Virus record (IMG/VR): IMGVR_UViG_3300023174_000110
Span: 1 to 64,000 of that record
Source: a virus
Length of the DNA: 64,000 bases
Direction: 5' to 3' (one strand)
The translations under genes were made by a program, and so were the position numbers. Numbering within the stretch: the stretch's first letter is position 1; each line of letters opens with the position of its first letter. Below, piece after piece: positions 1 through 12,344 of this stretch. Under the pieces are notes generated by a model. That model was not told where the DNA came from, ran no database searches, and saw nothing but the letters and a program-made list of their open reading frames with translations.

Positions 1-31
1 AGTGGTCTATAACTTTATCTGAATATGCCAT
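1..31 (-). CDS. iscU: Fe-S cluster scaffold IscU, N-terminal fragment (runs off window)
   Basis: Reverse strand reads MAYSDKVIDH, the characteristic proteobacterial IscU N-terminus; only 10 codons visible. Confidence 0.75.
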   Translation of the reverse strand, partial: MAYSDKVIDH

Positions 32-193
32 TTATTTTTTTTGTTGTTTTTCTATTCGTTTAAATTCTTCATCTTCAGCAATAGCATCATCAATATCTTT
101 TGGTTCGGGTGGCTCAGCACCTGTGCATGAACCACCATTACTGAACCACAATTCCATGGCTCTCTTACGATATTCTTCTAAATCGGAAGTCAT
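32..193 (-). CDS. hypothetical protein, 53 aa (MTSDLEEYRKRAMELWFSNGGSCTG...)
   Basis: Manually translated; stop abuts the iscU ATG, start overlaps the upstream stop (ATGA). Confidence 0.6.
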   Translation of the reverse strand: MTSDLEEYRKRAMELWFSNGGSCTGAEPPEPKDIDDAIAEDEEFKRIEKQQKK

Positions 194-327
194 CTACCTC
201 TACCCGCCTTACGCATTACAGTCATCTTAGGTGCAAAGTTTGGCTTTGCTTGAGGTTTTATATTTGCAGGTTTGAGATTGCGAACTTTTTTTAACTGTTC
301 TTCACGAAATTTTTTATCATCTGACAT
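190..327 (-). CDS. small basic hypothetical protein, 45 aa (MSDDKKFREEQLKK...RKAGRGR)
   Basis: Manually translated; AAGGAG Shine-Dalgarno upstream. Confidence 0.6.
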   Translation of the reverse strand: MSDDKKFREEQLKKVRNLKPANIKPQAKPNFAPKMTVMRKAGRGR

Positions 328-342
328 ATTATCTCCTTATGT

Positions 343-417
343 TGGTTGCGGGGGAAGGAATCGAACCTACGGCCCCTGGATTATGAGTCCAATGCTCTAC
401 CTCTGAGCTACCCCGCT
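343..417 (-). tRNA. tRNA-Met(CAT), initiator-like
   Basis: Cloverleaf, CTCATAA loop, GTTCGATT T-loop, encoded CCA; unpaired 1:72 (A:A) as in fMet tRNAs. Confidence 0.85.
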
Positions 418-442
418 ATAATTATATATCTCATTTTAAAAC

Positions 443-518
443 TGGCTGTCTTGGCTGGGCTTGAACCAGCGACCCAATGATTAACAGTCATTTGCTCTAC
501 CAACTGAGCTACAAGACA
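443..518 (-). tRNA. tRNA-Asn(GTT)
   Basis: Cloverleaf, CTGTTAA loop, GTTCAAG, CCA end. Confidence 0.95.
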
Positions 519-521
519 ATT

Positions 522-597
522 TGGTGCCCCAACCATGACTCGAACACGGGACCTACTGATTACAAATCAGTTGCTCTACCAACTGAGCTATTAGGGC
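522..597 (-). tRNA. tRNA-Thr(TGT)
   Basis: Cloverleaf, TTTGTAA loop, GTTCGAG, CCA end. Confidence 0.95.
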
Positions 598-606
598 AAT
601 TATGTT

Positions 607-792
607 TTAATTAACCGCAGGTAATTGTTGTGTTAACTTTCTTTTAGCTAGTGCTCTAGAAATTTTAGCTGCGTGTTTTTTACGAGCAGATTCTAAAAGC
701 TTTTCTAGTTGAGCAACATTTAACGGACCTAATTTTGGTTTTCCGTTTTTCGTTAACATGGGATTTTTGTTTTTAGATTTCAAAGTTGCCAT
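607..792 (-). CDS. small basic hypothetical protein
   Basis: 61-aa Lys-rich ORF with AAGGA upstream. Confidence 0.65.
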   Translation of the reverse strand: MATLKSKNKNPMLTKNGKPKLGPLNVAQLEKLLESARKKHAAKISRALAKRKLTQQLPAVN

Positions 793-810
793 AATATAGT
801 CCTTAGAATT

Positions 811-880
811 TGGAGCGGTGGTCTAGATTCGCACTAGATGAGTAGATTGGACACCTACTCTGGTTCTATACCCCGACCGC
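811..880 (-). ncRNA. non-canonical tRNA-Gly(TCC)-like RNA
   Basis: GCGGTCG...CCACCGC-T-CCA acceptor stem, 3-bp mini D arm, 7-bp anticodon stem with TGTCCAA loop, 5-bp T stem TCTAG/CTAGA with TGCGAAT loop. Confidence 0.75.
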
Positions 881-889
881 ATATGTAAT

Positions 890-918
890 ACTATAACATT
901 ATATAGGGTGCTTGTCAA
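890..918 (-). promoter_or_regulatory. sigma70-type promoter driving the tRNA-like RNA and tRNA cluster
   Basis: TTGACA-17 nt-TATAGT with TG extension. Confidence 0.75.
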
Positions 919-1438
919 TGTTTATTTGTGGTATATTTTTCCAAGCAATAGGTTCTGGTTTTAGTATATCATCCGGATTCCGGACATCCGAAAACACTTC
1001 CCATAACTTTTCTTTAATTGCAAATTTGGTAAACAAACCTGTTGATAAACCATATGCTTCTATTTCCCATGGTTCATCGTAATAATCCATATTTTCAGTA
1101 TTGATTCTTTGGCCTCTCCAACGAGTACCATATTCATTGGTTTCACCATAAACATATTGTTTGATGTGAACCATTTCATGAGCCAAAGTTTCTAAAATAT
1201 CGTGTGATCCAATTAATGGATTTATCTCTATCTCAAACTCTCTTGGTTTATTGCTCTCATTATAATCAATAACTCCAGCATATCCCAAAGCATCCAATTT
1301 AGAATCAAATTTAATGCGAACAAATATATTGTCCAACATCTTAGGTGTCATCAATTTTTCAGCATAAAAGATAGCCGCACGTTTCACAAAAGGTCGGAAA
1401 CGTTTTTTATCGGGACAACCAACTATACTTAATTGCAT
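899..1438 (-). CDS. zinc metallopeptidase-like protein (HEXXH)
   Basis: LAHEMVHIKQY plus downstream PWEIEAY third-ligand motif. Confidence 0.75.
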   Translation of the reverse strand: MQLSIVGCPDKKRFRPFVKRAAIFYAEKLMTPKMLDNIFVRIKFDSKLDALGYAGVIDYNESNKPREFEIEINPLIGSHDILETLAHEMVHIKQYVYGETNEYGTRWRGQRINTENMDYYDEPWEIEAYGLSTGLFTKFAIKEKLWEVFSDVRNPDDILKPEPIAWKNIPQINIDKHPI

Positions 1439-1533
1439 TAGGTCTCTCCTTAGTAAATTGACCCAATAATTGACATGGTGTTATAACACCTTATCTATTT
1501 ATGACTAATATTCATTTCACCAGGTGAAATAAA

Positions 1534-2019
1534 TTACTCTACTTTCTCGACCATTATATCACATTTCCTAAGAAAGTCAAGCCCTATAGTATCTCTGTAG
1601 GTGTTTCGGTAATATACTTTTTTAATACCAGCGGTATACATTTGTTTAGCGCAATGAATACATGGGGCATGCGTCAGGAACATGGTGGATCCATCTCCAG
1701 ATTCACTACTCTTGGCTAGTTTGGCGATAGCATTAGCCTCAGCATGGATTACTTCATCCTTGGTTTTTAATCGACCAATACCACCATCTTCTTCTTTAAA
1801 TAACCATTCATCGTTTTTGTAGTTTTGTGGAAAGTTACCAATAAAATACTCTTTTTCTTCACATTCATTGGTCCATCCGGCCGGCATACCATTGTATCCA
1901 ATAGATATAATTCTATCATCTTTGACAATAATAGCCCCAACTTGTAGTCGTTTTGCGGATGACAGTTTGGCAAATCGTTCTGCCACATCCATGTAAGCAT
2001 TAATAAATTTTTGTTTCAT
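1534..2019 (-). CDS. cd: dCMP deaminase
   Basis: VGAIIVKD..IISIGYNG, HAEANAI and PCxxC zinc motifs. Confidence 0.93.
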   Translation of the reverse strand: MKQKFINAYMDVAERFAKLSSAKRLQVGAIIVKDDRIISIGYNGMPAGWTNECEEKEYFIGNFPQNYKNDEWLFKEEDGGIGRLKTKDEVIHAEANAIAKLAKSSESGDGSTMFLTHAPCIHCAKQMYTAGIKKVYYRNTYRDTIGLDFLRKCDIMVEKVE

Positions 2020-2033
2020 ATTTGTTTTTTTTT

Positions 2034-2108
2034 TGGTCCGGCCGCCAGGAATCGAACCTGGATTAATAGCTTAGAAGGCTACTGTTCTATCCATTGAACT
2101 ACAGCCAG
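2034..2108 (-). tRNA. tRNA-Arg(TCT)
   Basis: Cloverleaf, CTTCTAA loop, GTTCGATT, CCA end. Confidence 0.93.
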
Positions 2109-2112
2109 ATAT

Positions 2113-2189
2113 TGGTGGGCCCACCTGGACTCGAACCAGGGACCAAAGGATTATGAGTCCTCTGCTCTAACCAACTGAGCTATAGGCCC
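2113..2189 (-). tRNA. tRNA with CAT anticodon, probably Ile2 (lysidine, reads AUA); elongator Met not excluded
   Basis: Cloverleaf with paired G1:C72, GGGCCTA acceptor and TGGTTAGAGC D arm similar to bacterial Ile2 tRNAs. Confidence 0.8.
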
Positions 2190-2194
2190 AATCT

Positions 2195-2368
2195 TTACCA
2201 AGATCCATCGTCAAACCATATTCGTATGGTGAATGGCATTAGTTCAATAATATAAGAAGTTGATACTTCCCAAGCATCATTTTCACTACCTTTACTAAAA
2301 TGTAATCTCCAATGAAATGGATTTAATTTCAAAATAATATTACATCCAGAATACTTTAACCAATTCAT
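2195..2368 (-). CDS. hypothetical protein, 57 aa (MNWLKYSGCNIILKLNPFHW...WFDDGSW)
   Basis: Manually translated; ATGA overlap with upstream stop. Confidence 0.6.
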   Translation of the reverse strand: MNWLKYSGCNIILKLNPFHWRLHFSKGSENDAWEVSTSYIIELMPFTIRIWFDDGSW

Positions 2369-2595
2369 TTTAAAATTTCGCCAATTGGTTGTGAAATGTT
2401 TAATTGTTGTCTGATAAATTTATCTTTTAACATATCTGGAATATTAAAATATGGTTCTTCTAAAATAAACGGACACGGATTACCCCATTTATTTTGAGAT
2501 AAAAATGTTTTAAACAATTCTATATCTTTTTTATTTTTTGGGTCAAAAATATGTTTTTGATTGTTCATCATTTGATGATTTGTTAGAAATGTCAT
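2365..2595 (-). CDS. hypothetical protein
   Basis: ORF in a chain of ATGA-coupled genes. Confidence 0.6.
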   Translation of the reverse strand: MTFLTNHQMMNNQKHIFDPKNKKDIELFKTFLSQNKWGNPCPFILEEPYFNIPDMLKDKFIRQQLNISQPIGEILK

Positions 2596-2819
2596 TTTAT
2601 ATACTCCACATTATCTTTACGCATATAGTGAACCACTTGATTTTGTTTTTGATTTGGCATTTCTTTTACTACGGGAATAAAAGTGACCCCTTCGATTTCT
2701 CTGGTATCCCAATTCGAATAGGTATAATAGACATCGGAGTTCGTTTTTGAACGAACCTTTTTTAAGATAGATTTGTCGCCGGTATAACCGGGTCTAGGAG
2801 ATTTTTTCAATGATTTCAT
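2592..2819 (-). CDS. hypothetical protein
   Basis: ORF downstream of a sigma70-like promoter, coupled to next gene. Confidence 0.65.
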   Translation of the reverse strand: MKSLKKSPRPGYTGDKSILKKVRSKTNSDVYYTYSNWDTREIEGVTFIPVVKEMPNQKQNQVVHYMRKDNVEYIK

Positions 2820-2839
2820 AATATAATATTAACATAGAG

Positions 2840-2865
2840 ATAGGGGGTTGTCAAGAACCCCCTAT
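2840..2865 (-). terminator. hairpin after hsp20, overlapping the -35 (TTGACA) of a downstream promoter
   Basis: ATAGGGGGTT / AACCCCCTAT inverted repeat. Confidence 0.55.
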
Positions 2866-2869
2866 ATTT

Positions 2870-2935
2870 TTACCGAAATTTTGGATAATTCAACTGTTCC
2901 CATTCATCATCAGATACGGGCCACCAGTTATTCAT
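2870..2935 (-). CDS. putative 21-aa micropeptide MNNWWPVSDDEWEQLNYPKFR
   Basis: ATG overlaps hsp20 end (GATGAATAA), purine-rich SD-like stretch upstream, stop just before the hairpin. Confidence 0.45.
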   Translation of the reverse strand: MNNWWPVSDDEWEQLNYPKFR

Positions 2936-3392
2936 CTTTCTTTTCCTTGATGGCAATCTTCTTAATAGCATCTTGGGTTTGCACAAAATTTTCCAACCAT
3001 ACTCGTAACATACCATTTACCATTTCGGCATCTTTGATTTCAATCTTATCTGCCAGAGTAAATGCACGTGTGAAATTACGGTTAGCAATACCTTTGAATA
3101 AGAAATTTTCTTCTTCATTGATATCGTTTTCTTTTGCGGAACCTTTGATGACCAATTTATTGCCTTCAAGTGTTACTTCAATATCAGACTTGGCAAAACC
3201 AGCAACTGCCATTTCAATGACATACTTGTTTTTGCTTACTTGCTTGATATTGTATGGGGGATATGACGGCACAGCCTTTTGAATCGTTTTGGTAACTTCT
3301 TCAATATCTTTAAAGAAACTGTCAAAGCCAACCGTATATGGATCAAGGGTCTTGTGAAAGTCAAAAATGGAAGGTAATAGACTTGTAGTCAT
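2928..3392 (-). CDS. hsp20: small heat shock protein (Hsp20/IbpA family)
   Basis: YPPYNI, IEMAVAGF, GIANRNFTRAF, A.MVNGML alpha-crystallin motifs. Confidence 0.95.
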   Translation of the reverse strand: MTTSLLPSIFDFHKTLDPYTVGFDSFFKDIEEVTKTIQKAVPSYPPYNIKQVSKNKYVIEMAVAGFAKSDIEVTLEGNKLVIKGSAKENDINEEENFLFKGIANRNFTRAFTLADKIEIKDAEMVNGMLRVWLENFVQTQDAIKKIAIKEKKDE

Positions 3393-3401
3393 GTTTATGT
3401 G

Positions 3402-3419
3402 CTCCTTAGTTTAAGCGAG
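3402..3419 (-). promoter_or_regulatory. ROSE-like RNA thermometer hairpin sequestering the hsp20 SD
   Basis: CUC(G)CUUA-AAC-UAAGGAG: UCGCU motif with bulged G paired to AGGAG. Confidence 0.6.
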
Positions 3420-3457
3420 TTAATCAAAATTGTAGGCCCCTAAGGCACCTACATCCA

Positions 3458-3488
3458 TATTTATAACACATTTGCTTTTATTTGTCAA
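3458..3488 (-). promoter_or_regulatory. overlapping sigma70 (TTGACA-17-TATAAA) and T4 late (TATAAATA) promoter for hsp20
   Basis: Both consensus elements are visible. Confidence 0.65.
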
Positions 3489-3501
3489 TACTTTTTTGGT
3501 A

Positions 3502-3915
3502 TTAATAATTATCCGTTTTAACTTTGTTACCAATATTATATTTTGGTATAAGTTGCCAATCACCTTTTTCTTTATGTGAAAGAATTTTAATTTGTGATAA
3601 AAAGGTTGGTTGTGGAACTTCTGTGGATTTTTTATTGACTAAACCTACCAAACCCCAATCTTCTAACAAATTGGCAATAGCGTTTCTACGAGAAAGGTCA
3701 TTATCACTAATGTCAGTTGGCTTTCCATCCAAAGCAAATAATTCTTTAAAATGAACAATATAATACCTGCCTTGTTTATGTAAAATATGGCACGATTGAT
3801 ATAGTATTTTTTCTTTTTTTGATGCCACGCCAATGCGTGTGAGGGTTTCTCTGACTTTTAGGAAATCATCTTGTTGATTCAAAGTCACTTCAACCAAATC
3901 TGTAATATTAATCAT
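3502..3915 (-). CDS. regA: translational repressor RegA
   Basis: DDFLKVRETLTRIGVAS, LYQSCHILHKQGRYYIVHFKELF. Confidence 0.97.
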   Translation of the reverse strand: MINITDLVEVTLNQQDDFLKVRETLTRIGVASKKEKILYQSCHILHKQGRYYIVHFKELFALDGKPTDISDNDLSRRNAIANLLEDWGLVGLVNKKSTEVPQPTFLSQIKILSHKEKGDWQLIPKYNIGNKVKTDNY

Positions 3916-4301
3916 TACTTAACTCCGCCTTTATCTGTTTTTCTTTTTATTTCAGCGATTTGTTCGTCAGTAAGAATTCGTAAAGCCTCTTTGGCTTTTT
4001 CATTAGAATAACCAAAATATACCTTTACACATTCTATATTCTTATCGACCTCTGATTTCTGCCACGGTTGAAATTTCCGTTTCATTGGTCTGATGGTATT
4101 TAGAAGATATTGATATTGAAGGTCTTTTTCAAGATTTGGATGTTTGTTTAGTTCATTGACATATAACACACAGTCCATATGATAGGACAAGGCTCGGTTG
4201 ATGATGTAGGAGTTATAATCTTTATAATCCAACTCATCACGAAATACATTTTTTTTCTTTTCCAAAATAGATGGAAGAATTTCTTTGAATAAATCTGGCA
4301 T
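3915..4301 (-). CDS. 62: clamp loader small subunit gp62
   Basis: YIINRALS...KRKFQPW...YFGYSNEKAKEAL; adjacent to regA. Confidence 0.9.
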   Translation of the reverse strand: MPDLFKEILPSILEKKKNVFRDELDYKDYNSYIINRALSYHMDCVLYVNELNKHPNLEKDLQYQYLLNTIRPMKRKFQPWQKSEVDKNIECVKVYFGYSNEKAKEALRILTDEQIAEIKRKTDKGGVK

Positions 4302-4302
4302 C

Positions 4303-4755
4303 TTAATACCCCGATACCGTATATTTCATCATTTCTGTCAAAGTGTTATCATCAACTTTTTGAATAGGTGTAACTGCCTCTTGTTCAATGTCAATCAAAA
4401 CCATATTACGACCATCTTTGGTATAATAGTTTCTTGTTTTAAATAATTTAGGATCAACTTTAAACAACCAACCAGCATACTTATAATTGTGTCGAGCTGC
4501 CGGGACGGTGACAAAATATAATTCATCTACACCACGGCATTTGCGTAACTGATTTGGTTTAATCGTGATTGCTTTTTCTTTGATAAAAGGCACTTGTGTT
4601 TTTACTTCGATTGTTTTGCCATCACCCATTAAATCTTTTTTACTATCAAAATGATTAAGTGCTTGCTCAACAACAACACCCTTTTTAGTCAAATAATTGC
4701 TAACATATTTCTCACCCATACGGCCAAGAATATCCATCATCTGTGAACGATCCAT
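4303..4755 (-). CDS. putative PD-(D/E)XK endonuclease
   Basis: G..GE helix, D-L and IEVKT catalytic-type motif. Confidence 0.55.
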   Translation of the reverse strand: MDRSQMMDILGRMGEKYVSNYLTKKGVVVEQALNHFDSKKDLMGDGKTIEVKTQVPFIKEKAITIKPNQLRKCRGVDELYFVTVPAARHNYKYAGWLFKVDPKLFKTRNYYTKDGRNMVLIDIEQEAVTPIQKVDDNTLTEMMKYTVSGY

Positions 4756-4763
4756 GATTTTTC

Positions 4764-5696
4764 CTATCTAAAAGAACAATCAACCATGATTTCTGTCAAG
4801 CAGGCTATCATGTTAATTTCGTGGTCTGCCACAAAAGCGGATTGATATTGATATTTGGCAAGAATTAAAACTAACTGAGGAACGGAATCCGGTTTTAATT
4901 CTTCATACATTGAATCGTATAGTTTACGATAAACTTTTATAGGATCATTATCAAGATTATTTGTGACCCATTTACGAGCTGATGAAAAGTCTTTTTCTTT
5001 AAGAGATTTGATTAAGGATTCAAGTTGAATATCAGCAACATTAGAAAGAATGCCAGAATCAATGGCACCCGACACAGAATATCGCTGAAGCTCATTAAGA
5101 ATTCTTCGATTGTCAGGAAAGTGTTTCGTGATGACTGCGGCAACAACGTCTTTGGAGTATTTGATTCCTTCTTGCGAAAGGATGTTTTCAACCCGTTTAA
5201 AAAATTGTGCCGCCAATTTTGGTTTAGAACCGTTGATTTTAAAATCGATAACAGAACAGCGGGAGTGAATTGGATCAATGATACGATTTTTGAAATTGCA
5301 TGTGAAGATGAATGAGCAGTTTGATGCAAATTCTTCAATGGCTCCCCGTAGAGCAGGTTGAGTTGAATTAGGATTGAGATAATCAGCCTCATCAATGATG
5401 ACAACTTTTCTGCCACCCATGAGCGACATTGAAGAAGCATAGTTTTTAATTTTGTTACGGAGGACATCAATGCCAGACTCGTCAGAGCCATTGATGATAA
5501 TATAATCGCAACCAACCTCATTGCACAAAGCTTTAGCAACTGTTGTTTTTCCAACACCTGCTGTACCAGATAAAAGAAGATTTGGTATCTCTTTTCTCTT
5601 AACGAACTCCTGAAAAGTTTCCTTGAGCGCATCAGGAAGGATACAATCTTCGATTGTTTTCGGCCGATACTTCTCGACCCATAATAAATGTTCCAT
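4764..5696 (-). CDS. 44: clamp loader large subunit gp44 (AAA+)
   Basis: LWVEKYRP, GTAGVGKTT, IIDEAD, SRC motifs. Confidence 0.97.
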   Translation of the reverse strand: MEHLLWVEKYRPKTIEDCILPDALKETFQEFVKRKEIPNLLLSGTAGVGKTTVAKALCNEVGCDYIIINGSDESGIDVLRNKIKNYASSMSLMGGRKVVIIDEADYLNPNSTQPALRGAIEEFASNCSFIFTCNFKNRIIDPIHSRCSVIDFKINGSKPKLAAQFFKRVENILSQEGIKYSKDVVAAVITKHFPDNRRILNELQRYSVSGAIDSGILSNVADIQLESLIKSLKEKDFSSARKWVTNNLDNDPIKVYRKLYDSMYEELKPDSVPQLVLILAKYQYQSAFVADHEINMIACLTEIMVDCSFR

Positions 5697-5754
5697 TCAA
5701 AACTCCCATAATATATATTTTTACTTCTATACTGCTTTCAGAATATTGAGTTGT

Positions 5755-5780
5755 TTAAAGGTTCCGATTGGAACCTTTAA
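5755..5780. other. perfect 11-bp inverted repeat between gp45 region and gp44
   Basis: TTAAAGGTTCC-GATT-GGAACCTTTAA. Confidence 0.6.
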
Positions 5781-5784
5781 CATA

Positions 5785-5991
5785 TTAAGCCAATGCTCCG
5801 TTGAGTTGGCCAACTACATCCAAATAAGCCTCTTCAACTACAACTGGTTGTGCACCGATCGCTATAACTGTTTTGCCTTTCATCTCACCTTGTGGTGCGG
5901 TGAATACGGCATTAACTGCTGTAGGATTGACTGCGATAGGATCTTTGCTTGATGCTTCTGTAAAAGTTAATAACATTTTTTTATTCTCCAA
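5785..5991 (-). CDS. hypothetical protein
   Basis: 68-aa ORF between gp45 and gp44. Confidence 0.6.
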   Translation of the reverse strand: MENKKMLLTFTEASSKDPIAVNPTAVNAVFTAPQGEMKGKTVIAIGAQPVVVEEAYLDVVGQLNGALA

Positions 5992-6652
5992 ATTTAGAAT
6001 GTTTTGATTCTGATGCTACCCAATACTGGATTTCTTGTTTAGTATTTTTAAATGAGGCAAGTCCTTTAAATGAAATTTCTACATCATAAGAACCGGCAAT
6101 CATCTTTAAATTCTGAGTCAAGAATACCATTTTAAAACTTTTTCCGTTACCTACTCCAAGTTCAATTGAGTTGGTGTGAGCAGAATTATCTTCAGCATTA
6201 AATGTTGTTAGATTAATTTTGTCGCCCGAGGTTTCAATAGAAACATGGGGTGTTTGTAATACACTTGCTGTTTTTAAAATAGAATCATAATCTTCCGCAC
6301 TTAAAACAAAAGATGCATCGACACTAGGAAGATTTAATTCTTTTTCAGGTGGAACAACAATTTGAGTTTTTTCAGTTTTACGATATTTAACCTTACTGCG
6401 ACCAGATTTAAAAATCACATCAATATCGTTAAAATCAAGTTCTGTATCCTTATATAGTGAATGTACGGATAAGAATTGATTTAAATCGTAAATACAAAAA
6501 TCTTGAGGGAATTCATCCTTCAATGTAGCTTTGGCAAGCACAGATTTAGTGGCAGCCATTGTAGCCAATTTATTGCCTTTTTTAAATTGAATGCCTTGAT
6601 TGATTGTAGAAAAGTTTTTTAATACAGTTAGTGTTTCATTTGATAGCTTCAT
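5981..6652 (-). CDS. 45: sliding clamp gp45
   Basis: MKLSNETL.VLKNFSTIN, F.IYDLNQFL, Y.V.IS, YWVA. Confidence 0.95.
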   Translation of the reverse strand: MKLSNETLTVLKNFSTINQGIQFKKGNKLATMAATKSVLAKATLKDEFPQDFCIYDLNQFLSVHSLYKDTELDFNDIDVIFKSGRSKVKYRKTEKTQIVVPPEKELNLPSVDASFVLSAEDYDSILKTASVLQTPHVSIETSGDKINLTTFNAEDNSAHTNSIELGVGNGKSFKMVFLTQNLKMIAGSYDVEISFKGLASFKNTKQEIQYWVASESKHSKFGE

Positions 6653-6956
6653 TTACATCTCCATTATTTAAAGAATACATTATATCATGTTCATACAAAA
6701 ACATCAAGCAGCACATAGCATGTGCCAAATGATGTATACCAGATTCAGGATCTAATTGTTCGCCTTCTTTCCAGGCCCAAGTATGCCTTTGCAGTGCATC
6801 AAAATACCTACGCTTTGAATTGGGTACTTTTTTCCAGTTATCTCTGTCATATTTTTGAGCACCAAATGTTAATACTTTTACTACTTCTTTTAATGCTAAT
6901 GGTGGTAATAAACCATATTCTAGTTTGCCACCATCAAATTTACGACCTGCTTCCAT
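6636..6956 (-). CDS. DUF5664 / dATP-dGTP diphosphohydrolase N-terminal-domain protein
   Basis: GRKFDGGK...LLPP...VLTFGAQKY...NW...DPESGIHHLAHA. Confidence 0.8.
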   Translation of the reverse strand: MEAGRKFDGGKLEYGLLPPLALKEVVKVLTFGAQKYDRDNWKKVPNSKRRYFDALQRHTWAWKEGEQLDPESGIHHLAHAMCCLMFLYEHDIMYSLNNGDVNEAIK

Positions 6957-7753
6957 TACATTTCACCGACATAATTAGCAACAGCAGGCATATCTCCTTG
7001 GAAATGATATGTACCGATGTGTGAAGTTTTCATCCAAGGACACAACCAGATTTTACCACCAATATTTCTCCACCATTGACAGAACATATAATCTTCTGAT
7101 AGGTAACGCTCAGAGTCTTTATCAATTACAGTATCAAAATAAGCATGAATATAACGAGTACCATCAAAATGTGCTTGGCCAACATGGTCGGGACGATATT
7201 TAAGGTGTGGATAAGCTGCAGCAAATTTAGGAAACACTTCACGTTTTACCATCATAAATCCTGTACCAATTTCCATAACTTCTAAAGGTTCTGTTACAGA
7301 AAATTGTTGTGTACCTTTAACTGGATTGAATACATAGTCACCAGTAAGTTTATCTAAAATGCCAGCATCCATTTGAGGATTCATTTCTAGTGCTCGTTTA
7401 ATAGAACGCCATTTAATTGCTTTCTTAGGATAAGGACCACCGGCAACATCTTTGTCTAAGGCTAAAAGAGCCAAAACATCACGAGCTTCAAAGTGAATAT
7501 CGGAATCGATAAACAACATATGAGTACAATCCGAACGATTAAGAAACTCATCAACGAGATAATTACGAGCTCTAGTAATCAAAGATTCATTAAACAAGAA
7601 TGAAAATTTCGCCTGTACGCCATATTGAAAACATAAACCTTGTAAATCAAGACAAGCTTTCATGTATAGGCCGTGGTTAACTCCGCCATACATTGGTGTA
7701 GCAATGAACAAGCTTTTCTTTTGTAAATCTTCTTTTTTTATTGAAATTTCCAT
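6956..7753 (-). CDS. GT-A fold glycosyltransferase-like protein
   Basis: IATPMYGG, ESLITRARN, HMLFIDSDI (DxD), GTGFMM, LSEDY.FC. Confidence 0.75.
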   Translation of the reverse strand: MEISIKKEDLQKKSLFIATPMYGGVNHGLYMKACLDLQGLCFQYGVQAKFSFLFNESLITRARNYLVDEFLNRSDCTHMLFIDSDIHFEARDVLALLALDKDVAGGPYPKKAIKWRSIKRALEMNPQMDAGILDKLTGDYVFNPVKGTQQFSVTEPLEVMEIGTGFMMVKREVFPKFAAAYPHLKYRPDHVGQAHFDGTRYIHAYFDTVIDKDSERYLSEDYMFCQWWRNIGGKIWLCPWMKTSHIGTYHFQGDMPAVANYVGEM

Positions 7754-7770
7754 TTTTACTCCATGATTAT

Positions 7771-7806
7771 AAAAAAAAGGAAAATCGTTTTAACAACGAC
7801 TTTCCC
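7771..7806 (-). terminator. probable intrinsic terminator after wHTH gene
   Basis: Imperfect GGAAAATCGTT/AACGACTTTCC stem followed by an 8-U tract on the minus strand. Confidence 0.55.
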
Positions 7807-7817
7807 GATAAAACAGA

Positions 7818-8090
7818 TTAAGCAGTAAAGCTGTAACCTGCGCTGAGAGCAGCACGAACCATAGATTTGGTTGGTTTGCCCATGCGATATGCTTTAACTT
7901 TGGTACCATCACTACGCTTAACGGTGTTGGTGTAAATGCAATGTCCTTCTTGACGCAATTCGTCAATGCGGGCAGATACGTTTTGAATGCCGAAACGAGC
8001 ACGAGCCTGTGCTGTGGTTAAAGTGTTGTAACCTTCGGATTTGCTTAGGTAATTTACGATCTTTTGTTTAGCGGATAATTGCTTTTTCAT
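7818..8090 (-). CDS. winged helix-turn-helix DNA-binding protein
   Basis: TLTTAQARARFGIQNVSARIDELRQEGHCIYT; start moved to MKKQLS (GGAG upstream). Confidence 0.75.
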   Translation of the reverse strand: MKKQLSAKQKIVNYLSKSEGYNTLTTAQARARFGIQNVSARIDELRQEGHCIYTNTVKRSDGTKVKAYRMGKPTKSMVRAALSAGYSFTA

Positions 8091-8144
8091 AATAAAACTC
8101 CATAGTAAGTTAATAAAATAACCTTGCGTATTGCAAGTTCTCAC

Positions 8145-8174
8145 ATCATAACATTATATAGGTGCGTCTGTCAA
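8145..8174 (-). promoter_or_regulatory. sigma70-type promoter of wHTH gene
   Basis: TTGACA-18 nt-TATGAT; spacer nearly identical to the promoter at 890-918. Confidence 0.65.
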
Positions 8175-8193
8175 GTATAATAATGGTATATTT

Positions 8194-9519
8194 TTATCTG
8201 CCAACTTGTGGCAAATACTTTGCCTTGGTTTCTTCCCAAGAAAGGTAAATAAGGTCATCATAAAAGAGTGATTCATATGAAACATTATTTTTCTTTTGTA
8301 ATTGCCTAATTCTACCTTTGGCATATTTGGTTTTCCAAATATTTGCCAATGTTTCTTCACTGGTATCAAATGACTTTACCAGAGATTCATCCGTAATTTC
8401 TTTACGGAGAAATTCGTTTGTATTATTATACAGCGGACTAAAATAGATACCACGTTGGTGTTCTGTACGAATTAATTCTTTAGGAATATTAAGTTTTGAA
8501 TAGGCAAAATTCAAAGAACGATTTTTATGATCTCGTTTGAGTGGAAGTCCTTGAGGATTTTTGGCGTCCCACCATTCAAAATATTTTTTGGTGTGGTTCT
8601 TTTTAATCCAGTCAAATACCATTTTTTTAGTTTCTCTAGTTGGTTCAAAAGCAACCGAGCCTGAAGAAAATCCCATTGCCTTCCAATGTTCAAGTCCGTC
8701 ATATTGTGATAATCCACCAGCTTTAGTTTTTCCATAAAGACTAGTTGTGGTAACTCCGACCAAAGTGTCACCATATCTTTCTTTCCAATCTTTTTGAACG
8801 GTATCAGATAGGCACATCAAAGCTAGTAATTTACCACCCATATAATTATAGCCAAGCGGTTGTAATGGAACAATTGTAGAACCAATTGCCGTATGGTTAA
8901 TCATGTTTTGTTTTGTTTTGACATCTCTTGGCCAACCGATTGCATTATCTCTTGGAGTCAAGTCCAGAAAGTCTGACGAGATACAGATGACACCAAGATA
9001 TTTTTTGGTAACTTTATCTTGTAAAATATAATACAGATTACGACCAATGTTACTATTATTTTTCATTGTAGAAGAAAAAGTACGAATGGCATTCCAAGTT
9101 TCAACTCCAGTACCATTGGAAAGAATCATAACGGGTTCTAATTTTTCATAATCATCAGAAGATTCTGGTACCCAAAAGTTTTCTTTAACTTCTTTAATTA
9201 GTTCTTCTTGTTTTTTATCAATTATTTGTATTTCAATACCATCTGACATAGTTGATACTTCATGTACTGGATATCTTTCTTTGATTTCACACCATTTTTG
9301 GTATAATGTATATTCACGAACATCCATATCCGAAGCATATCTTAAATCGGAGATTAAAGTTTCTTTTAAAGTAAGGTCATCAATATGTTCAAAAGATTCT
9401 ATAGGATTTTGTTTTTGCCAAGCTTCCCATTGTTCTTCAGGTGTTCCAATTTCTTTAGTTGAAACAACAACTTCTTCATCACCCCATAATGTACTTATGG
9501 TATCAATCTTTTTTGCCAT
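8194..9519 (-). CDS. DUF4338 / DruA-like (Mom-related GNAT-like) protein
   Basis: GRNL..., LGVICISSD, RD..IGW, P.GYNYMGGKLLA, TTTSLYG, SQY, W..MG.SSG pattern. Confidence 0.7.
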   Translation of the reverse strand: MAKKIDTISTLWGDEEVVVSTKEIGTPEEQWEAWQKQNPIESFEHIDDLTLKETLISDLRYASDMDVREYTLYQKWCEIKERYPVHEVSTMSDGIEIQIIDKKQEELIKEVKENFWVPESSDDYEKLEPVMILSNGTGVETWNAIRTFSSTMKNNSNIGRNLYYILQDKVTKKYLGVICISSDFLDLTPRDNAIGWPRDVKTKQNMINHTAIGSTIVPLQPLGYNYMGGKLLALMCLSDTVQKDWKERYGDTLVGVTTTSLYGKTKAGGLSQYDGLEHWKAMGFSSGSVAFEPTRETKKMVFDWIKKNHTKKYFEWWDAKNPQGLPLKRDHKNRSLNFAYSKLNIPKELIRTEHQRGIYFSPLYNNTNEFLRKEITDESLVKSFDTSEETLANIWKTKYAKGRIRQLQKKNNVSYESLFYDDLIYLSWEETKAKYLPQVGR

Positions 9520-10091
9520 TATTTAAGTTTTAATTTCTTCATTAATTTATTTCGTTTTTGCATTCCAGATTGCAATGCCATTGGTTTAGTTTTACTAGTA
9601 TAAACTATTCCATTCATGTGGTCAAGCTCATGTTGAAAACAACGAGCAGATATGCCAGAAAAGGTGGCACCTTTCCATTCTCCATTAAAATCTTGGTATC
9701 GAACTCCTATTTCAGCCGGTCTGGTAATTCTTAAACCTAATAAAGGAAAAGAAAGGCATCCTTCTATCATATGGCTTTCTTCTTTTGAAGAATTAATTAT
9801 TTCTGGATTAAAAAATGCCACGTAATCATCATCGGTACCCATAACAAATACTCGATACCTAAAACCACATTGGTTTGCTGATAAACCATAACCACGATTG
9901 TGTTTGCATGTTTCAACAAGGGTGGATGCAAATAAGCTAGGATTAACTGGTGGATTGTTAAAATTAAATTCTGGCATTACCTCATTTAAAATAGGATCTG
10001 TTTCTGCCACCAATTTAAAAATATTAATTTGTTTTTTAGGTTCAGAAACTTTTACTGCATCTTCTGTGTTAAATGTGATTATATCACTCAT
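9519..10091 (-). CDS. def: peptide deformylase
   Basis: GYGLSANQ, EGCLS and QHELDH motifs. Confidence 0.95.
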   Translation of the reverse strand: MSDIITFNTEDAVKVSEPKKQINIFKLVAETDPILNEVMPEFNFNNPPVNPSLFASTLVETCKHNRGYGLSANQCGFRYRVFVMGTDDDYVAFFNPEIINSSKEESHMIEGCLSFPLLGLRITRPAEIGVRYQDFNGEWKGATFSGISARCFQHELDHMNGIVYTSKTKPMALQSGMQKRNKLMKKLKLK

Positions 10092-10632
10092 TTATTTTCT
10101 CCTGTAATTCATCAAATATTCCCATGGACAATTCAAATCCGAGCAAAGCTTCTTCAACTAACTCTGTGGATAATTTAGCATCTAATGCTTTGATTAATGC
10201 GGGCCTATCTTCAAACTGATATGCTTTGCCAGAACCAGGTACTCTTTTTGCAATAATCTTTCCGCCATATAAATCGCCCATGTGTCTAACATAGACATGT
10301 GCCAACAAAAGGTGTCTTTTTTCTGGTGTGTAAAACAATTCTTCTATGTGTTTACGGTACTTTTGTGTGCTTTCGTATTTGTTGGTTGGATAACCAGAAT
10401 GTAATTCAGACAAATCCTGTAGAATATAATTAGACCTTTTTATGTCCGGTAAATCTTGAATTAAACCAGCCAATTCTGCATAATATTCCAAAATAGCATA
10501 AACAGGAAACATCTGTTGTAGATACATTACATAATGTGTTTCTGTAATTGTTCCACCAAGAAGATATTGAACGAAAGGTTTAGATTCCGCTTCTCGATGT
10601 TTTGCATTAGTATATTCTCTCAACACACTCAT
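10084..10632 (-). CDS. heme oxygenase
   Basis: LREYT..KH..AE, LLAHVYVRHMGDLYGG. Confidence 0.88.
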   Translation of the reverse strand: MSVLREYTNAKHREAESKPFVQYLLGGTITETHYVMYLQQMFPVYAILEYYAELAGLIQDLPDIKRSNYILQDLSELHSGYPTNKYESTQKYRKHIEELFYTPEKRHLLLAHVYVRHMGDLYGGKIIAKRVPGSGKAYQFEDRPALIKALDAKLSTELVEEALLGFELSMGIFDELQEKINE

Positions 10633-12344
10633 TTCGCCACCTGACTAAAATTATTTTTCTTTTCAAATTTAATAATCGACCTGAATTTATCAAATAACTG
10701 GTCGCCTTTGTGGGATATAACAAATACATTGGTGTCAGTTCCCATGTCATGAATTAATTTTAAAAATTCTTCCGTGCCAACACCATCTAAAGAAGAATCA
10801 AATACCTCATCAAGAATCAATAGATTGGTATTAGTACTGTTTTTTAACTTGGCAATCTGTCGCCATGTAAATAACAATGCCAAGTCAATACGCATTTTTT
10901 CACCTTCTGAAAAATTGGCATAACTAAACTCATCACGGTGCCTTGATTTGATTGTTTCTTCAAATGATTCATTGATATTAAAGTTTACAAAAAAATCCAT
11001 GGCTGTCAAATACTTATTAATTAATTTATTCATAATAGGCAAGTATTGTTTAATAATTTTGGTTTTAATACCAGTATCTTTTAATAGTGCTCCAGCGAAT
11101 TCATAATATTGTTTATCAATCGACAATTGTTCTTGAGTTGAAATTAAACCTTTAAGTTCTTCACGCAACTCTTTTAATTTAGCATTTTCTTCTTCCAACG
11201 AATCTTTTTTGGAAGATAGTTCTGTAATTTCTTTTTCTACTTTAGTAATATACGAAAGAACGGCTGTTATAGTAGAATTGTGTTTGACGATTTCATTATT
11301 GTGTGCCGTAATATGTTGAAGTGTTTTTTGTATTTTTTCTATTCTATCATTTGTTTCAGAAATTTGTTTTTCAATATCTTCTAACGCTGTATTAACTTGG
11401 CTTTTTGTTTCACTTAATGTAACAATTTGTTGAGTTTTAAATTCATGTTCAATACCTTGTTTACAAGTAGGACAATTATCATGGTCATGATAAAATACCA
11501 CATCCTTTTCAAGTTTTTTTAAACGAGATTCTAATTTAGATTCGTATTGAACCAACTTGGCACTTTTCTTTTGCATAGCCATTTGATCAGCAATCTTACT
11601 TTGTAACACATTAATGTGTTTTTGTATTAGAGCCACGTCTTTATTAAGTTGATCTATTTGTGCATTACTGGTGGCCACTTCTGTTTTTTTCTTCTCAATT
11701 TCGGCATCATTGTGTTTCTTATGTTCTTCAATATTTTGTTTTTGAAAATTGATTCTTTCGGATGTCAAATCCATTTGATGTTTATTTTTTACCGTTTCAT
11801 CTTTAATTGCTGTCATTTTTTCTTTAACAATTGTATTCATTGATGAAAAGATTTGAATGTCCAATAAATCCTCAATGATAGCTCGCCTATCAGCTGGAGA
11901 TAGTTGCATAAAAGGAACAAACGAAGCCGAACCTAAAATCACCACTTGTGTGAATGATTTATAGTTTATTTTAAGAATAAACTTTTCTAGATGTTCTTGA
12001 TAATCTTTTGCTTTAGCATCTTGATCAACAAGATTACCATTACAATAGATTTCAAACATGTTAGGTTTAATACCACGAATAACCTTATACATTTTTTTAC
12101 CAATTGTAAATTCAATCTCCACAAGACAATCAGCTTGATTGATGGAGTTTAGTAATTGTGGTTTGTTGATTTTACGAAATGGTTTACCAAAAAGGCCAAA
12201 ACATAACGCATCTAAGATGGTTGATTTGCCGGCACCATTATTGCCAATAATGAGTGTGTTTGGTGATTTGGTTAGATGAATCTCAGTAAAATTGGCGCCT
12301 GTTGAAAGAAAATTCTTCCAACGGACTTTTTCAAATATAATCAT
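10629..12344 (-). CDS. 46: recombination endonuclease subunit gp46 (Rad50/SbcC-like)
   Basis: GNNGAGKST, CPTC zinc hook, FSEGEK, LILDEVFD. Confidence 0.97.
   Translation of the reverse strand: MIIFEKVRWKNFLSTGANFTEIHLTKSPNTLIIGNNGAGKSTILDALCFGLFGKPFRKINKPQLLNSINQADCLVEIEFTIGKKMYKVIRGIKPNMFEIYCNGNLVDQDAKAKDYQEHLEKFILKINYKSFTQVVILGSASFVPFMQLSPADRRAIIEDLLDIQIFSSMNTIVKEKMTAIKDETVKNKHQMDLTSERINFQKQNIEEHKKHNDAEIEKKKTEVATSNAQIDQLNKDVALIQKHINVLQSKIADQMAMQKKSAKLVQYESKLESRLKKLEKDVVFYHDHDNCPTCKQGIEHEFKTQQIVTLSETKSQVNTALEDIEKQISETNDRIEKIQKTLQHITAHNNEIVKHNSTITAVLSYITKVEKEITELSSKKDSLEEENAKLKELREELKGLISTQEQLSIDKQYYEFAGALLKDTGIKTKIIKQYLPIMNKLINKYLTAMDFFVNFNINESFEETIKSRHRDEFSYANFSEGEKMRIDLALLFTWRQIAKLKNSTNTNLLILDEVFDSSLDGVGTEEFLKLIHDMGTDTNVFVISHKGDQLFDKFRSIIKFEKKNNFSQVAK

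What the first reader, a model, noticed from the sequence alone, without database searches (positions are those of the whole stretch)
811..9519. Candidate tRNA-dependent DNA hypermodification system: dedicated Gly-tRNA-like RNA plus Mom/DruA-like enzyme
Seen: a 70-nt tRNA-like RNA (811-880) with Gly identity elements, and 7 kb away a DUF4338/DruA-like protein (8194-9519) with a GNAT/Mom-like motif order (GGKLLA, TTTSLYG, SQY, W..MG), next to a glycosyltransferase and a DUF5664 protein. Known: phage Mu Mom is a GNAT-fold enzyme making N6-carbamoylmethyl-adenine, and from recollection (please verify) it has been reported to use glycyl-tRNA-Gly as donor. Fem-type GNAT enzymes use aminoacyl-tRNA, and staphylococci keep non-proteinogenic tRNA-Gly for this. 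Inference: the phage may encode its own non-ribosomal glycyl donor for modifying its DNA (anti-restriction) or another target. The genes are not adjacent, so the link is speculative.
Basis: partly seen in the sequence, partly recalled or inferred. Interest (0 to 1): 0.85.

Follow-up and report, generated by a model that had tools for sequence, protein, structure and literature searches.

The report
Phage mini glycine-tRNA and DruA acyltransferase
A T4-like aquatic phage encodes a shrunken, strongly conserved glycine-tRNA look-alike that keeps the marks for being loaded with glycine but not those for reading codons; it travels with an acyltransferase whose nearest solved structure is Mom, the phage enzyme that uses glycyl-tRNA to disguise DNA, so it may be a private glycine carrier, which is still untested.

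Summary
Both observations are real. The RNA at 811-880 (minus strand) is a 70-nt mini-cloverleaf that ARAGORN and Rfam miss. Across 13 variants every stem position stays paired, and five pairs change on both sides. It belongs to a wider, undescribed family (classes A-E, 65-75 nt) in pelagimyophage-like T4 phages.

All classes keep the GlyRS determinants (G1-C72, C2-G71, U73, C35, C36) and CCA. They lose G18-G19 and psi55, and mostly lose U33 or a 7-nt anticodon loop.

The 441-aa protein is Pfam DruA. Its confident model has a GNAT core, and phage Mu Mom is the top hit among 48,161 solved chains (Z 10.1). It has no detectable sequence homology to Mom.

RNA and gene co-occur in 24 of 30 and 13 of 16 contigs and in both cultured SAR11 myophages. 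In a sister lineage the RNA starts 22-29 nt after the gene in 8 of 8 contigs.

The link is still confounded by shared ancestry. One DruA-positive phage lacks the RNA, and charging, transfer and DNA modification are untested.

This scan has already noted the same pairing in at least 25 other genomes; I found no paper describing it.

The parts
811..880 (-). Class A mini tRNA-Gly-like RNA, 70 nt. It has a 7-pair acceptor stem with a conserved C.C mismatch at pair 6, a 3-bp D stem with an AUAGA loop (no G18-G19), a 7-bp anticodon stem, a UGUCCAA loop (G33, C35, C36), a 1-nt variable region, a 5-bp T stem with a UGCGAAU loop (G55), then U73 and an encoded CCA.
   Evidence: Fold. Alignment and covariation (100% paired, 5 compensatory pairs). 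Covariance model R1 scores it 101 bits. Missed by ARAGORN and Rfam.
890..918 (-). Sigma-70-type promoter-like site, TTGACA-17-TATAGT with a TG extension. It ends 9 nt before the first base of the RNA.
   Evidence: 11 of 12 matches. The -10 region and the spacing to GCGG are kept in relatives. This is a consensus match only; promoter-like sites overall are not enriched in the region.
8194..9519 (-). DruA-family (DUF4338) protein of 441 aa. It has an N-terminal helical domain of no recognised fold (about residues 27-120), a GNAT core (about 123-385) and C-terminal helices.
   Evidence: Pfam and PADLOC hits. AlphaFold model with pLDDT 93.4 and pTM 0.90. VIA-align search: Mom 8bv8 at Z 10.1, with all other top hits GNATs. 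BFVD search.
9519..10091 (-). Peptide deformylase. Its stop overlaps the start of the DruA-like gene. It is the most conserved neighbour (18 of 19 long loci, including phage Mosig).
7818..8144 (-). Small winged-helix (HTH_39) protein directly downstream of the DruA-like gene. It is conserved there only among the close metagenomic relatives.
   Evidence: 17 of 17 close loci; elsewhere or absent in the two isolates.
The assignment is weak.
   Evidence: Conserved neighbour only in close relatives.
6636..6956 (-). Stand-alone DUF5664 / dGTP_diPhyd_N domain protein.
   Evidence: E 1e-36. Present in 15 of 17 close loci and absent next to the gene in the isolates.
899..1438 (-). SprT-like, putative zinc-metalloprotease gene. 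The slot after it holds a class A or a class B RNA in related phages.
607..792 (-). 61-aa basic ORF of unknown family. It starts about 18 nt after the RNA's CCA and is probably co-transcribed with it and with the downstream tRNAs.
343..597 (-). Canonical tRNA-Thr, tRNA-Asn and tRNA-Met, all with encoded CCA, downstream on the same strand. Canonical tRNA-Arg and a second tRNA-Met lie at 2034-2189.

Best explanation
Shown: the 70-nt RNA is a functional descendant of the phage's own tRNA-Gly, and selection keeps its cloverleaf.

Inferred: the host glycyl-tRNA synthetase still charges it, because it keeps G1-C72, C2-G71, G3-C70, U73, C35, C36 and CCA. It is kept away from the ribosome because it has lost G18-G19, psi55 and U33 and has a 7-bp anticodon stem. 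It would therefore act as a private carrier of activated glycine.

Inferred, weaker: the most likely consumer is the DruA-family GNAT encoded 7.3 kb upstream. That enzyme would take the glycyl group from the RNA's 3' end and put it on an acceptor.

Inferred, weakest: by analogy with Mom, and because other DruA-family proteins are fused to DNA-handling domains, the acceptor is most plausibly a base in double-stranded phage DNA.

A dedicated carrier would spare the host's small tRNA-Gly pool for translation, as the non-proteogenic tRNA-Gly species do for FmhB/FemA/FemB in staphylococci.
For: RNA under selection:
- Class A: 273 of 273 cells paired, 5 compensatory pairs, loops invariant.
- Class B: 540 of 540 cells paired, 9 compensatory pairs.

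Glycine identity kept, decoding features lost:
- In class B, positions 33 and 34 vary while C35-C36 never do.
- Class E has a 6-nt or shorter anticodon loop.
- All classes have G55 and lack G18-G19.
- The GlyRS determinants, and the D/T-arm discrimination of non-proteogenic tRNA-Gly, are taken from PMC7826273.

Origin by duplication: the RNAs sit 5-9 nt from a canonical phage tRNA-Gly in many contigs.

Enzyme:
- The GNAT core matches Mom at rank 1 of 48,161 chains (Z 10.1, 169 residues aligned, rmsd 3.8). FemA is also listed (Z 8.1).
- Mom is the first named, characterised family in BFVD.
- Mom uses Gly-tRNA-Gly and reads mainly the 3' end of the tRNA.
- DruA-family GNATs are fused to UDG and ParB_N domains.

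Linkage:
- 24 of 30 DruA-positive contigs carry such an RNA.
- 13 of 16 RNA-positive contigs carry the gene, including two distant contigs found by the RNA pattern alone.
- Both cultured pelagimyophages have both. HTVC008M's single tRNA-like gene is this RNA.
- 0 of 5 cyanophages without the gene have the RNA signature.
- In a sister lineage (about 60% identity) the RNA starts 22-29 nt after the gene, on the same strand, in 8 of 8 contigs.
Against: - There is no sequence homology to Mom (hhalign probability 0.2%; no PF25680 hit). Mom's essential R111, S124 and R151 have no evident counterparts in the conserved motifs.
- Mom's margin over ordinary acetyl-CoA GNATs is only about one Z unit, which the tool treats as nearly tied. 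Foldseek alone gave no hit at E<=0.001.
- The conserved QPLGYNYMGGK stretch resembles the CoA-binding loop of GNATs (my reading), so acyl-CoA may be the donor.
- Gene and RNA are both traits of one viral clade with strongly conserved gene order, so the co-occurrence is phylogenetically confounded.
- One DruA-positive 89-kb relative has about 30 canonical tRNAs, including two normal tRNA-Gly, and no mini RNA.
- Five cyanophages that carry the shorter DruA paralog have none.
- Only 1 of more than 100 SAR11 genomes is reported to have an R-M system (PMC7029224), which weakens an anti-restriction rationale.
- There is no evidence of expression, charging or modified bases.
Confidence: 0.35

Rival explanations
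1. The mini tRNA-Gly is functional, but its role has nothing to do with the DruA-like protein. It could be a decoy that soaks up host tRNA-targeting defences (anticodon nucleases, or GNAT toxins that acetylate Gly-tRNA-Gly). It could be an RNase P/Z processing signal at the head of its operon, or a regulator. In this reading the GNAT is an ordinary acyl-CoA-dependent acetyltransferase, for instance a protein N-terminal acetyltransferase working after the adjacent peptide deformylase.
For: - The RNA heads a transcript with its own promoter-like site, followed by a small ORF and three tRNAs.
- Many top fold hits are N-terminal acetyltransferases such as RimI, Naa10/50/60 and Ard1.
- The deformylase/DruA-like adjacency, with overlapping stop and start, is the most conserved neighbourhood (18 of 19 loci).
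- The Gly-rich loop after strand 4 resembles a CoA site (my reading).
- A DruA-positive phage without the RNA exists.
Against: - A processing signal or a generic decoy does not explain why C35, C36, U73 and the first three acceptor pairs are invariant while positions 33 and 34 drift.
- It does not explain the 22-29-nt adjacency of RNA and gene in a sister lineage.
- DruA-family fusions point to DNA rather than to nascent proteins.
Confidence: 0.35
2. The RNA is the target of the GNAT rather than its donor. The enzyme would acylate the RNA, or its aminoacyl group, as TacT/AtaT-type GNATs do with charged tRNAs. Alternatively the RNA is a structural cofactor or guide for the enzyme.
For: - The genomic linkage is the same as for the best explanation.
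- GNAT toxins that act on Gly-tRNA-Gly are an established precedent, cited in PMC13219725. AtaT appears among the weak Foldseek hits.
Against: There is no toxin-antitoxin context. The gene sits in the phage replication module. The family's fusions are to DNA-handling domains.
Confidence: 0.1
3. The RNA is an odd but working decoder: a phage tRNA-Gly(UCC) that supplements translation of GGA/GGG codons in an AT-rich genome.
For: - It lies among ordinary phage tRNAs and carries CCA as they do.
- The class D versions in HTVC008M and Mosig have a normal 7-nt loop with U33 and a purine at position 37. HTVC008M's copy passes Rfam's tRNA threshold (49.5 bits).
Against: - Class A has G33, a 7-bp anticodon stem, a 3-bp D stem, and neither G18-G19 nor psi55.
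- Class B has C37 and variable positions 33 and 34. Class E has 6-nt or shorter loops.
- Many phages carry a canonical tRNA-Gly(UCC) right beside the mini RNA, so decoding is already covered.
Confidence: 0.08
4. The RNA is a decaying tRNA pseudogene with no function.
For: Standard tRNA finders reject it.
Against: Every substitution in 13 class A and 27 class B variants preserves pairing, and the loops are invariant, even though the flanking protein has diverged to about 63% identity.
Confidence: 0.02

Closest known systems
Non-proteogenic tRNA-Gly (NP1-NP3) of Staphylococcus aureus, the glycyl donors for FmhB/FemA/FemB (PMC7826273)
   Same: - They are extra tRNA-Gly paralogues that keep the GlyRS determinants (G1-C72, C2-G71, U73, C35, C36).
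[quoted passage not shown]
- They serve, or here would serve, a GNAT-fold aminoacyl-transferase away from the ribosome.
   Different: - The phage RNAs are shortened (65-70 nt), with 3-bp D stems, long anticodon stems and non-decoding loops.
- They are virus-encoded.
- Their consumer is unknown. The candidate has a single GNAT domain of the DruA family, not a two-domain Fem protein.
- Weak EF-Tu binding is inferred here, not measured.
Mom of bacteriophage Mu (Pfam PF25680, PDB 8bv8; PMC13219725)
   Same: It is a phage GNAT-fold enzyme and the best structural match to the DruA-like core (Z 10.1). Mom takes glycine from Gly-tRNA-Gly, recognises mainly the 3' end of the tRNA, and modifies adenine in dsDNA.
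   Different: - There is no detectable sequence homology.
- Mom's essential residues are not evidently conserved.
- Mom is 231-241 aa and uses host tRNA; this protein is 441 aa with extra N- and C-terminal domains.
- No modified base is known in these phages.
DruA of type I Druantia (Pfam PF14236 / DUF4338)
   Same: The protein is a member of the same Pfam family. That family was already called a GNAT domain in PMC10853773 and was noted in six Synechococcus phages in the Phold preprint (10.1101/2025.08.05.668817).
   Different: There are no DruB-DruE partners here. The gene sits in a T4-type replication module next to peptide deformylase. The function of DruA itself is unknown, so membership explains nothing about mechanism.
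Aminoacylatable tRNA-like structures of plant RNA viruses (my own knowledge, not checked here)
   Same: They are viral RNAs that mimic a tRNA well enough to be charged by a host synthetase without serving as decoders.
   Different: Those are 3' ends of RNA genomes with pseudoknotted acceptor arms. These are free-standing small genes of DNA phages, derived by duplication from a real tRNA gene.

Membership tests
Canonical tRNA (Rfam RF00005) | Scores above the family's gathering threshold (29 bits) | tested here: not met
   No match for 811-880, even at E<=10 in a 131-base search. ARAGORN also gives no call. Classes B and C and Mosig's RNA are also missed. HTVC008M's copy scores 49.5 bits.
Canonical tRNA (Rfam RF00005) | Elbow and decoding signatures: G18-G19, T54-psi55-C56, U33, a 5-bp anticodon stem and a 7-nt loop | tested here: not met
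   The D loop is AUAGA, the T loop is UGCGAAU, position 33 is G, and the anticodon stem has 7 bp.
Glycine-accepting RNA (substrate of bacterial GlyRS) | Identity determinants G1-C72, C2-G71, U73, C35 and C36 (PMC7826273) | tested here: met
   All are present and invariant in classes A and B and present in classes C, D and E.
Glycine-accepting RNA (substrate of bacterial GlyRS) | Actual aminoacylation with glycine | not testable with these tools
   Needs an in vitro charging assay.
Non-proteogenic tRNA-Gly of the staphylococcal type | D and T arms diverge from the translating isoacceptor while acceptor and anticodon identity are kept | tested here: met
   Comparison with the adjacent canonical phage tRNA-Gly genes. 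Criteria.
Non-proteogenic tRNA-Gly of the staphylococcal type | Poor EF-Tu and ribosome binding, and use by a Fem-type transferase | not testable with these tools
   Biochemical properties. By descent, that lineage is restricted to staphylococci, so this is an analogue, not a member.
Pfam DruA / DUF4338 (PF14236) | Profile match above the curated cut-off | tested here: met
   69.4 bits against a cut-off of 27, E 3.7e-19, residues 154-372. PADLOC DruA E 1.6e-16.
Type I Druantia defence system | DruA together with DruB, DruC, DruD and the DruE helicase | tested here: not met
   The neighbours are gp46, heme oxygenase, deformylase, a wHTH protein, an Anp1-like protein, DUF5664 and gp45.
GNAT superfamily | GNAT alpha/beta fold | tested here: met
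   The model has pLDDT 93.4. All 50 top VIA-align hits are GNAT-fold proteins, Z 7.7-10.1, over residues about 123-385.
Mom family (PF25680) | Sequence membership | tested here: not met
   No PF25680 hit. Profile-profile probability 0.2%.
Mom family (PF25680) | Catalytic residues R111, S124 and R151 (paper numbering) | tested here: inconclusive
   No residue-level structural alignment was available. The conserved motifs differ: QPLG..GGK and TTSLYG here, against ELNR, NSESR and FADER in Mom.
Mom family (PF25680) | Gly-tRNA-Gly as donor and dsDNA adenine as acceptor | not testable with these tools
   Needs enzymology and nucleoside mass spectrometry.
Fem (FemABX) aminoacyl-transferases | Two tandem GNAT domains, with a helical arm in FemA | tested here: inconclusive
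   FemA 1lrz matches one GNAT domain at Z 8.1. The model shows one GNAT core plus helical extensions.

The most novel reading that the evidence does not exclude
DruA-family GNATs, both the phage enzymes and possibly DruA of type I Druantia, are Mom-like enzymes that transfer an amino acid from a charged tRNA to DNA. On this reading, this phage clade has evolved a self-contained system: the enzyme plus its own non-decoding, GlyRS-chargeable carrier RNA. Glycyl-type hypermodification of phage DNA then would not compete with translation in a streamlined host.
Probability: 0.12. Interest if true: 0.9.

Novelty: new variant of a known kind. Interest (0 to 1): 0.7.

Why it matters
If the RNA is a private glycine carrier, it would be the first virus-encoded non-proteinogenic tRNA. 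It would also be a second, independent case of dividing a tRNA pool between translation and another pathway, after staphylococcal cell-wall synthesis.

If the DruA-type GNAT is its consumer, that would give a first biochemical handle on DUF4338/DruA. That family is widespread in phages, giant viruses and a bacterial defence system, and its function is unknown. It would also extend tRNA-dependent DNA modification beyond Mom.

Practically, these RNAs are invisible to tRNAscan-SE, ARAGORN and Rfam. HTVC008M is published as having no tRNA, and in Mosig the RNA is annotated as a protein-coding gene. Two cultured phage-host pairs (HTVC008M and Mosig on Pelagibacter HTCC1062) make the hypothesis directly testable.

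Tried and rejected
- RNA-seq: the 24 RNA runs held only 4-8% of the sampled words. Four marine runs laid on 300-2300 covered only the canonical tRNA stretches and nothing at 811-880. They were contigs, so this says nothing about expression.
- Profile-profile comparison of the DruA-like family with a single Mom sequence and with a 49-member Mom alignment gave nothing significant. Only a 14-column 'QRGVY' coincidence appeared.
- Sequence and profile searches of the PDB gave nothing. NCBIfam gave nothing for six proteins.
- My guess that residues 27-120 form a winged helix failed: the domain folded alone (pLDDT 83.5) had a best Z of 3.8.
- BLASTN of class A and class B RNAs against 50,697 phage isolates found no match.
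Only 7 RNAs in 6 loci were real.
- My ad-hoc cloverleaf script missed class B and was replaced by covariance models.
- Contig G024 (RNA present, no DruA-like gene) proved uninformative, because it lacks the whole replication module.
- The paralog-bearing cyanophage test was negative, but the pattern needs an encoded CCA and exact GCGG/CCGC ends.
- Host assignment failed: no psbA and no S21 in the 55%-complete record, and GC of 33.5-36% fits several hosts.
- Complex prediction was not used, because it does not take RNA.

Full report
**What the window is.** The window is the first 64 kb of a 91.6-kb IMG/VR virus record that is about 55% complete. The region 1-12,344 is transcribed entirely from the minus strand and is a T4-type replication module. 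In transcription order it holds gp46, heme oxygenase, peptide deformylase, the DruA-like gene, a small winged-helix protein, an Anp1-like protein, DUF5664, gp45, gp44, gp62, RegA and Hsp20. Then come tRNA-Met and tRNA-Arg, dCMP deaminase, an SprT-like protein, the RNA in question, a 61-aa ORF, and tRNA-Thr, tRNA-Asn and tRNA-Met.

The nearest isolates for the DruA-like gene are in fact the Pelagibacter myophages Mosig (57% identity, annotated DUF4338, next to a deformylase) and HTVC008M (56%). The sliding clamp is at most 42% identical to any cyanophage clamp. GC content is 33.5-36%, and neither psbA nor S21 is in the record, so the host is undetermined.

**The RNA is real and under selection.** The minus strand of 811-880 folds into a small cloverleaf. 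ARAGORN and Rfam do not recognise it. I fetched 80 related contigs through the adjacent SprT-like gene and found 13 distinct variants. On the cloverleaf, all 273 pair cells are standard pairs. Five pairs change on both sides: acceptor pair 5, one anticodon-stem pair and three T-stem pairs. Sliding the 3' partners by one to three columns drops pairing to 28-47%. The loops, the first four acceptor pairs, U73 and CCA never change. This holds even though the neighbouring protein has diverged to about 63% identity. A pseudogene is therefore excluded.

**It is one class of a larger family.**
- Class B (67-68 nt) occupies the same slot in the closest relatives. It has the same ends and a different body. 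Over 27 variants, 540 of 540 cells are paired, with nine compensatory pairs spread over all four helices.
- Class C (69 nt) and further near-canonical variants occur in other contigs.
- Class D (74 nt) is in the two cultured phages.
- Class E (65-67 nt) is in a sister lineage.

All classes start G1-C2-G3-G4 and end C-C-G-C, U73, CCA. All keep C35-C36, have G instead of psi at position 55, and lack G18-G19. Classes A and B have a 3-bp D stem and a 7-bp anticodon stem. Class A has G33. In class B, positions 33 and 34 vary freely while C35, C36 and C37 are fixed. Class E has a six-base or shorter loop.

The conserved set is exactly the published GlyRS identity set. The altered parts, the D and T arms, are the parts that distinguish the staphylococcal non-proteogenic tRNA-Gly species from translating ones (PMC7826273). 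In many contigs the mini RNA lies 5-9 nt from a canonical 74-nt phage tRNA-Gly, and L070 has classes A and B in tandem. So the family most likely arose by tandem duplication of the phage's own tRNA-Gly.

In this window only the class A copy is present. A near-consensus sigma-70-type promoter ends 9 nt before its first base. All five canonical tRNAs of this phage also encode CCA, so that feature is not special to the RNA.

**These RNAs have been overlooked.** Rfam misses classes A, B and C and Mosig's copy. The pelagimyophage survey lists HTVC008M with zero tRNAs (PMC7029224), yet its only tRNA-like gene is the class D RNA with anticodon ACC. In Mosig the RNA is annotated as a hypothetical protein-coding gene. 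My literature searches found no description of the family.

**The protein.** It has thousands of close relatives in aquatic metagenomes and 895 cluster representatives at E<=0.001. With an 80-sequence alignment, AlphaFold gave a confident model (pLDDT 93.4, pTM 0.90).

An exhaustive structural comparison with 48,161 representative solved chains put phage Mu Mom (8bv8) first: Z 10.1, 169 residues aligned, rmsd 3.8. It was followed only by GNAT acyltransferases (Z 9.1 and below), including FemA at Z 8.1. Foldseek alone found nothing at E<=0.001, but listed Mom at probability 0.92. In the viral structure library, after the protein's own family (which includes giant-virus proteins), Mom is the first named, characterised family.

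The GNAT fold is therefore established. It had already been stated for DUF4338 in one sentence of PMC10853773, and DruA-like proteins in Synechococcus phages were noted in the Phold preprint. The specific closeness to Mom is consistent but modest: one Z unit. At the sequence level there is no relationship, and the conserved motifs of the two families differ. The N-terminal domain has no recognisable fold. Longer family members carry uracil-DNA-glycosylase-superfamily, ParB_N or DUF3102 domains in front of the GNAT domain, which points to DNA as the setting for the family.

**Mom.** Mom transfers glycine from Gly-tRNA-Gly to N6 of adenine in dsDNA. It accepts all three E. coli isoacceptors but not Gly-tRNA-Ala, and it appears to read the 3' end of the tRNA and the amino acid (PMC13219725).

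**Are RNA and gene linked?**
- Of 30 DruA-anchored contigs with at least 9 kb downstream, 18 have a class A, B or C RNA within 10 kb. Whole-record searches add five more, and one further contig has the RNA beyond 10 kb, giving 24 of 30.
- Of 16 RNA-bearing contigs, 13 carry the gene. These include two distant contigs (57-58% identity) that were found by the RNA pattern alone. The three negatives are fragments or lack the replication module.
- Both cultured pelagimyophages have both elements.
- Five cyanophage isolates without the gene have no RNA with this signature, while the two pelagiphages score one each and reversed-pattern controls score zero.
- Earlier notes of this scan said that in other lineages the RNA lies directly behind the gene. 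I tested this. In eight of eight contigs of a sister lineage (ortholog about 60% identical, gp46 about 50%), a class E RNA starts 22-29 nt after the end of the gene on the same strand, and its stems show compensatory differences between variants.

**What weighs against a link.**
- Gene order in these phages is strongly conserved, so co-occurrence within one clade is weak evidence.
- The Anp1-like and DUF5664 neighbours are conserved only among close relatives.
- One 89-kb DruA-positive relative has about 30 canonical tRNAs, including two normal tRNA-Gly, and no mini RNA.
- Five cyanophages with the shorter DruA-family paralog have no such RNA.

**Verdict.**
- The RNA is a new, well-supported family of tRNA-Gly-derived RNAs, very probably charged with glycine and very probably not used for decoding.
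- The protein is a DruA-family GNAT whose shape is closest to Mom.
- A functional pairing, with the RNA as private glycyl donor for this enzyme, is the single most likely reading. I put it at about one in three.
- DNA as the acceptor stands at about one in eight.
- The main rival is that the GNAT is an ordinary acyl-CoA enzyme, perhaps acting with the adjacent deformylase, and that the RNA serves some other purpose.
- Nothing here shows expression, charging, transfer or modified bases.

Noticed in passing
L170:1501-1574 (NC_020484.1 91140-91213, + strand): HTVC008M's only tRNA-like gene is a 74-nt tRNA-Gly with the unusual anticodon ACC, T loop AGCGUUA and no G18-G19. The published pelagimyophage table lists this phage with 0 tRNAs.
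   Followed up: yes
L169 (MT647606.1 7779-7852, - strand): In phage Mosig the class D Gly-like RNA is missed by ARAGORN and Rfam. It lies under a CDS annotated as hypothetical protein Mosig_000011, which is probably a mis-annotation.
   Followed up: partly
e.g. G020:C1:11101-11520, G018:C1:46002-46421; HTVC008M gp122 (L168:27390-28514): Many related records hold a second DruA-family paralog of about 370 aa (34-38% identity over residues 140-279). In HTVC008M it sits next to the DNA polymerase. The cyanophage hits ('putative cytoplasmic protein, T4-like GC 1216') are of this type, and one record (PQ898602.1) annotates it as 'methylcarbamoylase mom'. The paralog was not found in the window's incomplete record.
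   Followed up: partly
P0146, P0175, P0186, P0236: DruA-family GNAT domains occur fused to uracil-DNA-glycosylase-superfamily, ParB N-terminal and DUF3102 domains.
   Followed up: partly
BFVD hits A0A3G4ZXG3, A0A5K0UAJ3, A0A3G4ZRA1: Giant viruses (Faunusvirus, Yasminevirus, Dasosvirus) encode proteins with the same fold as the whole DruA-like protein (Foldseek E 3e-19 to 3e-9). Some of these proteins are over 1,100 aa long.
   Followed up: no
window 9519: The stop codon of the peptide deformylase gene overlaps the start of the DruA-like gene. This adjacency is the most conserved one (18 of 19 long loci, including Mosig), which could mean translational coupling.
   Followed up: partly
window 10084-10632: The heme-oxygenase-like gene between gp46 and the deformylase is present in only 1 of 19 related loci, so it looks like a recent insertion.
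   Followed up: no
L070:4537-4679; L062:2537-2988: Some phages carry class A and class B mini RNAs together. In L070 they are in tandem, 6 nt apart. So the classes are not simply alternative alleles of one slot.
   Followed up: partly
window 607-792: A 61-aa lysine-rich ORF with no family match starts about 18 nt after the RNA's CCA. It follows the RNA in both class A and class B phages.
   Followed up: no
L311 (G004:C1:45000-64000): A DruA-positive relative carries an array of about 30 canonical tRNAs, close to a full set, but no mini tRNA-Gly. Mini RNAs may be a feature of phages with few tRNAs.
   Followed up: partly
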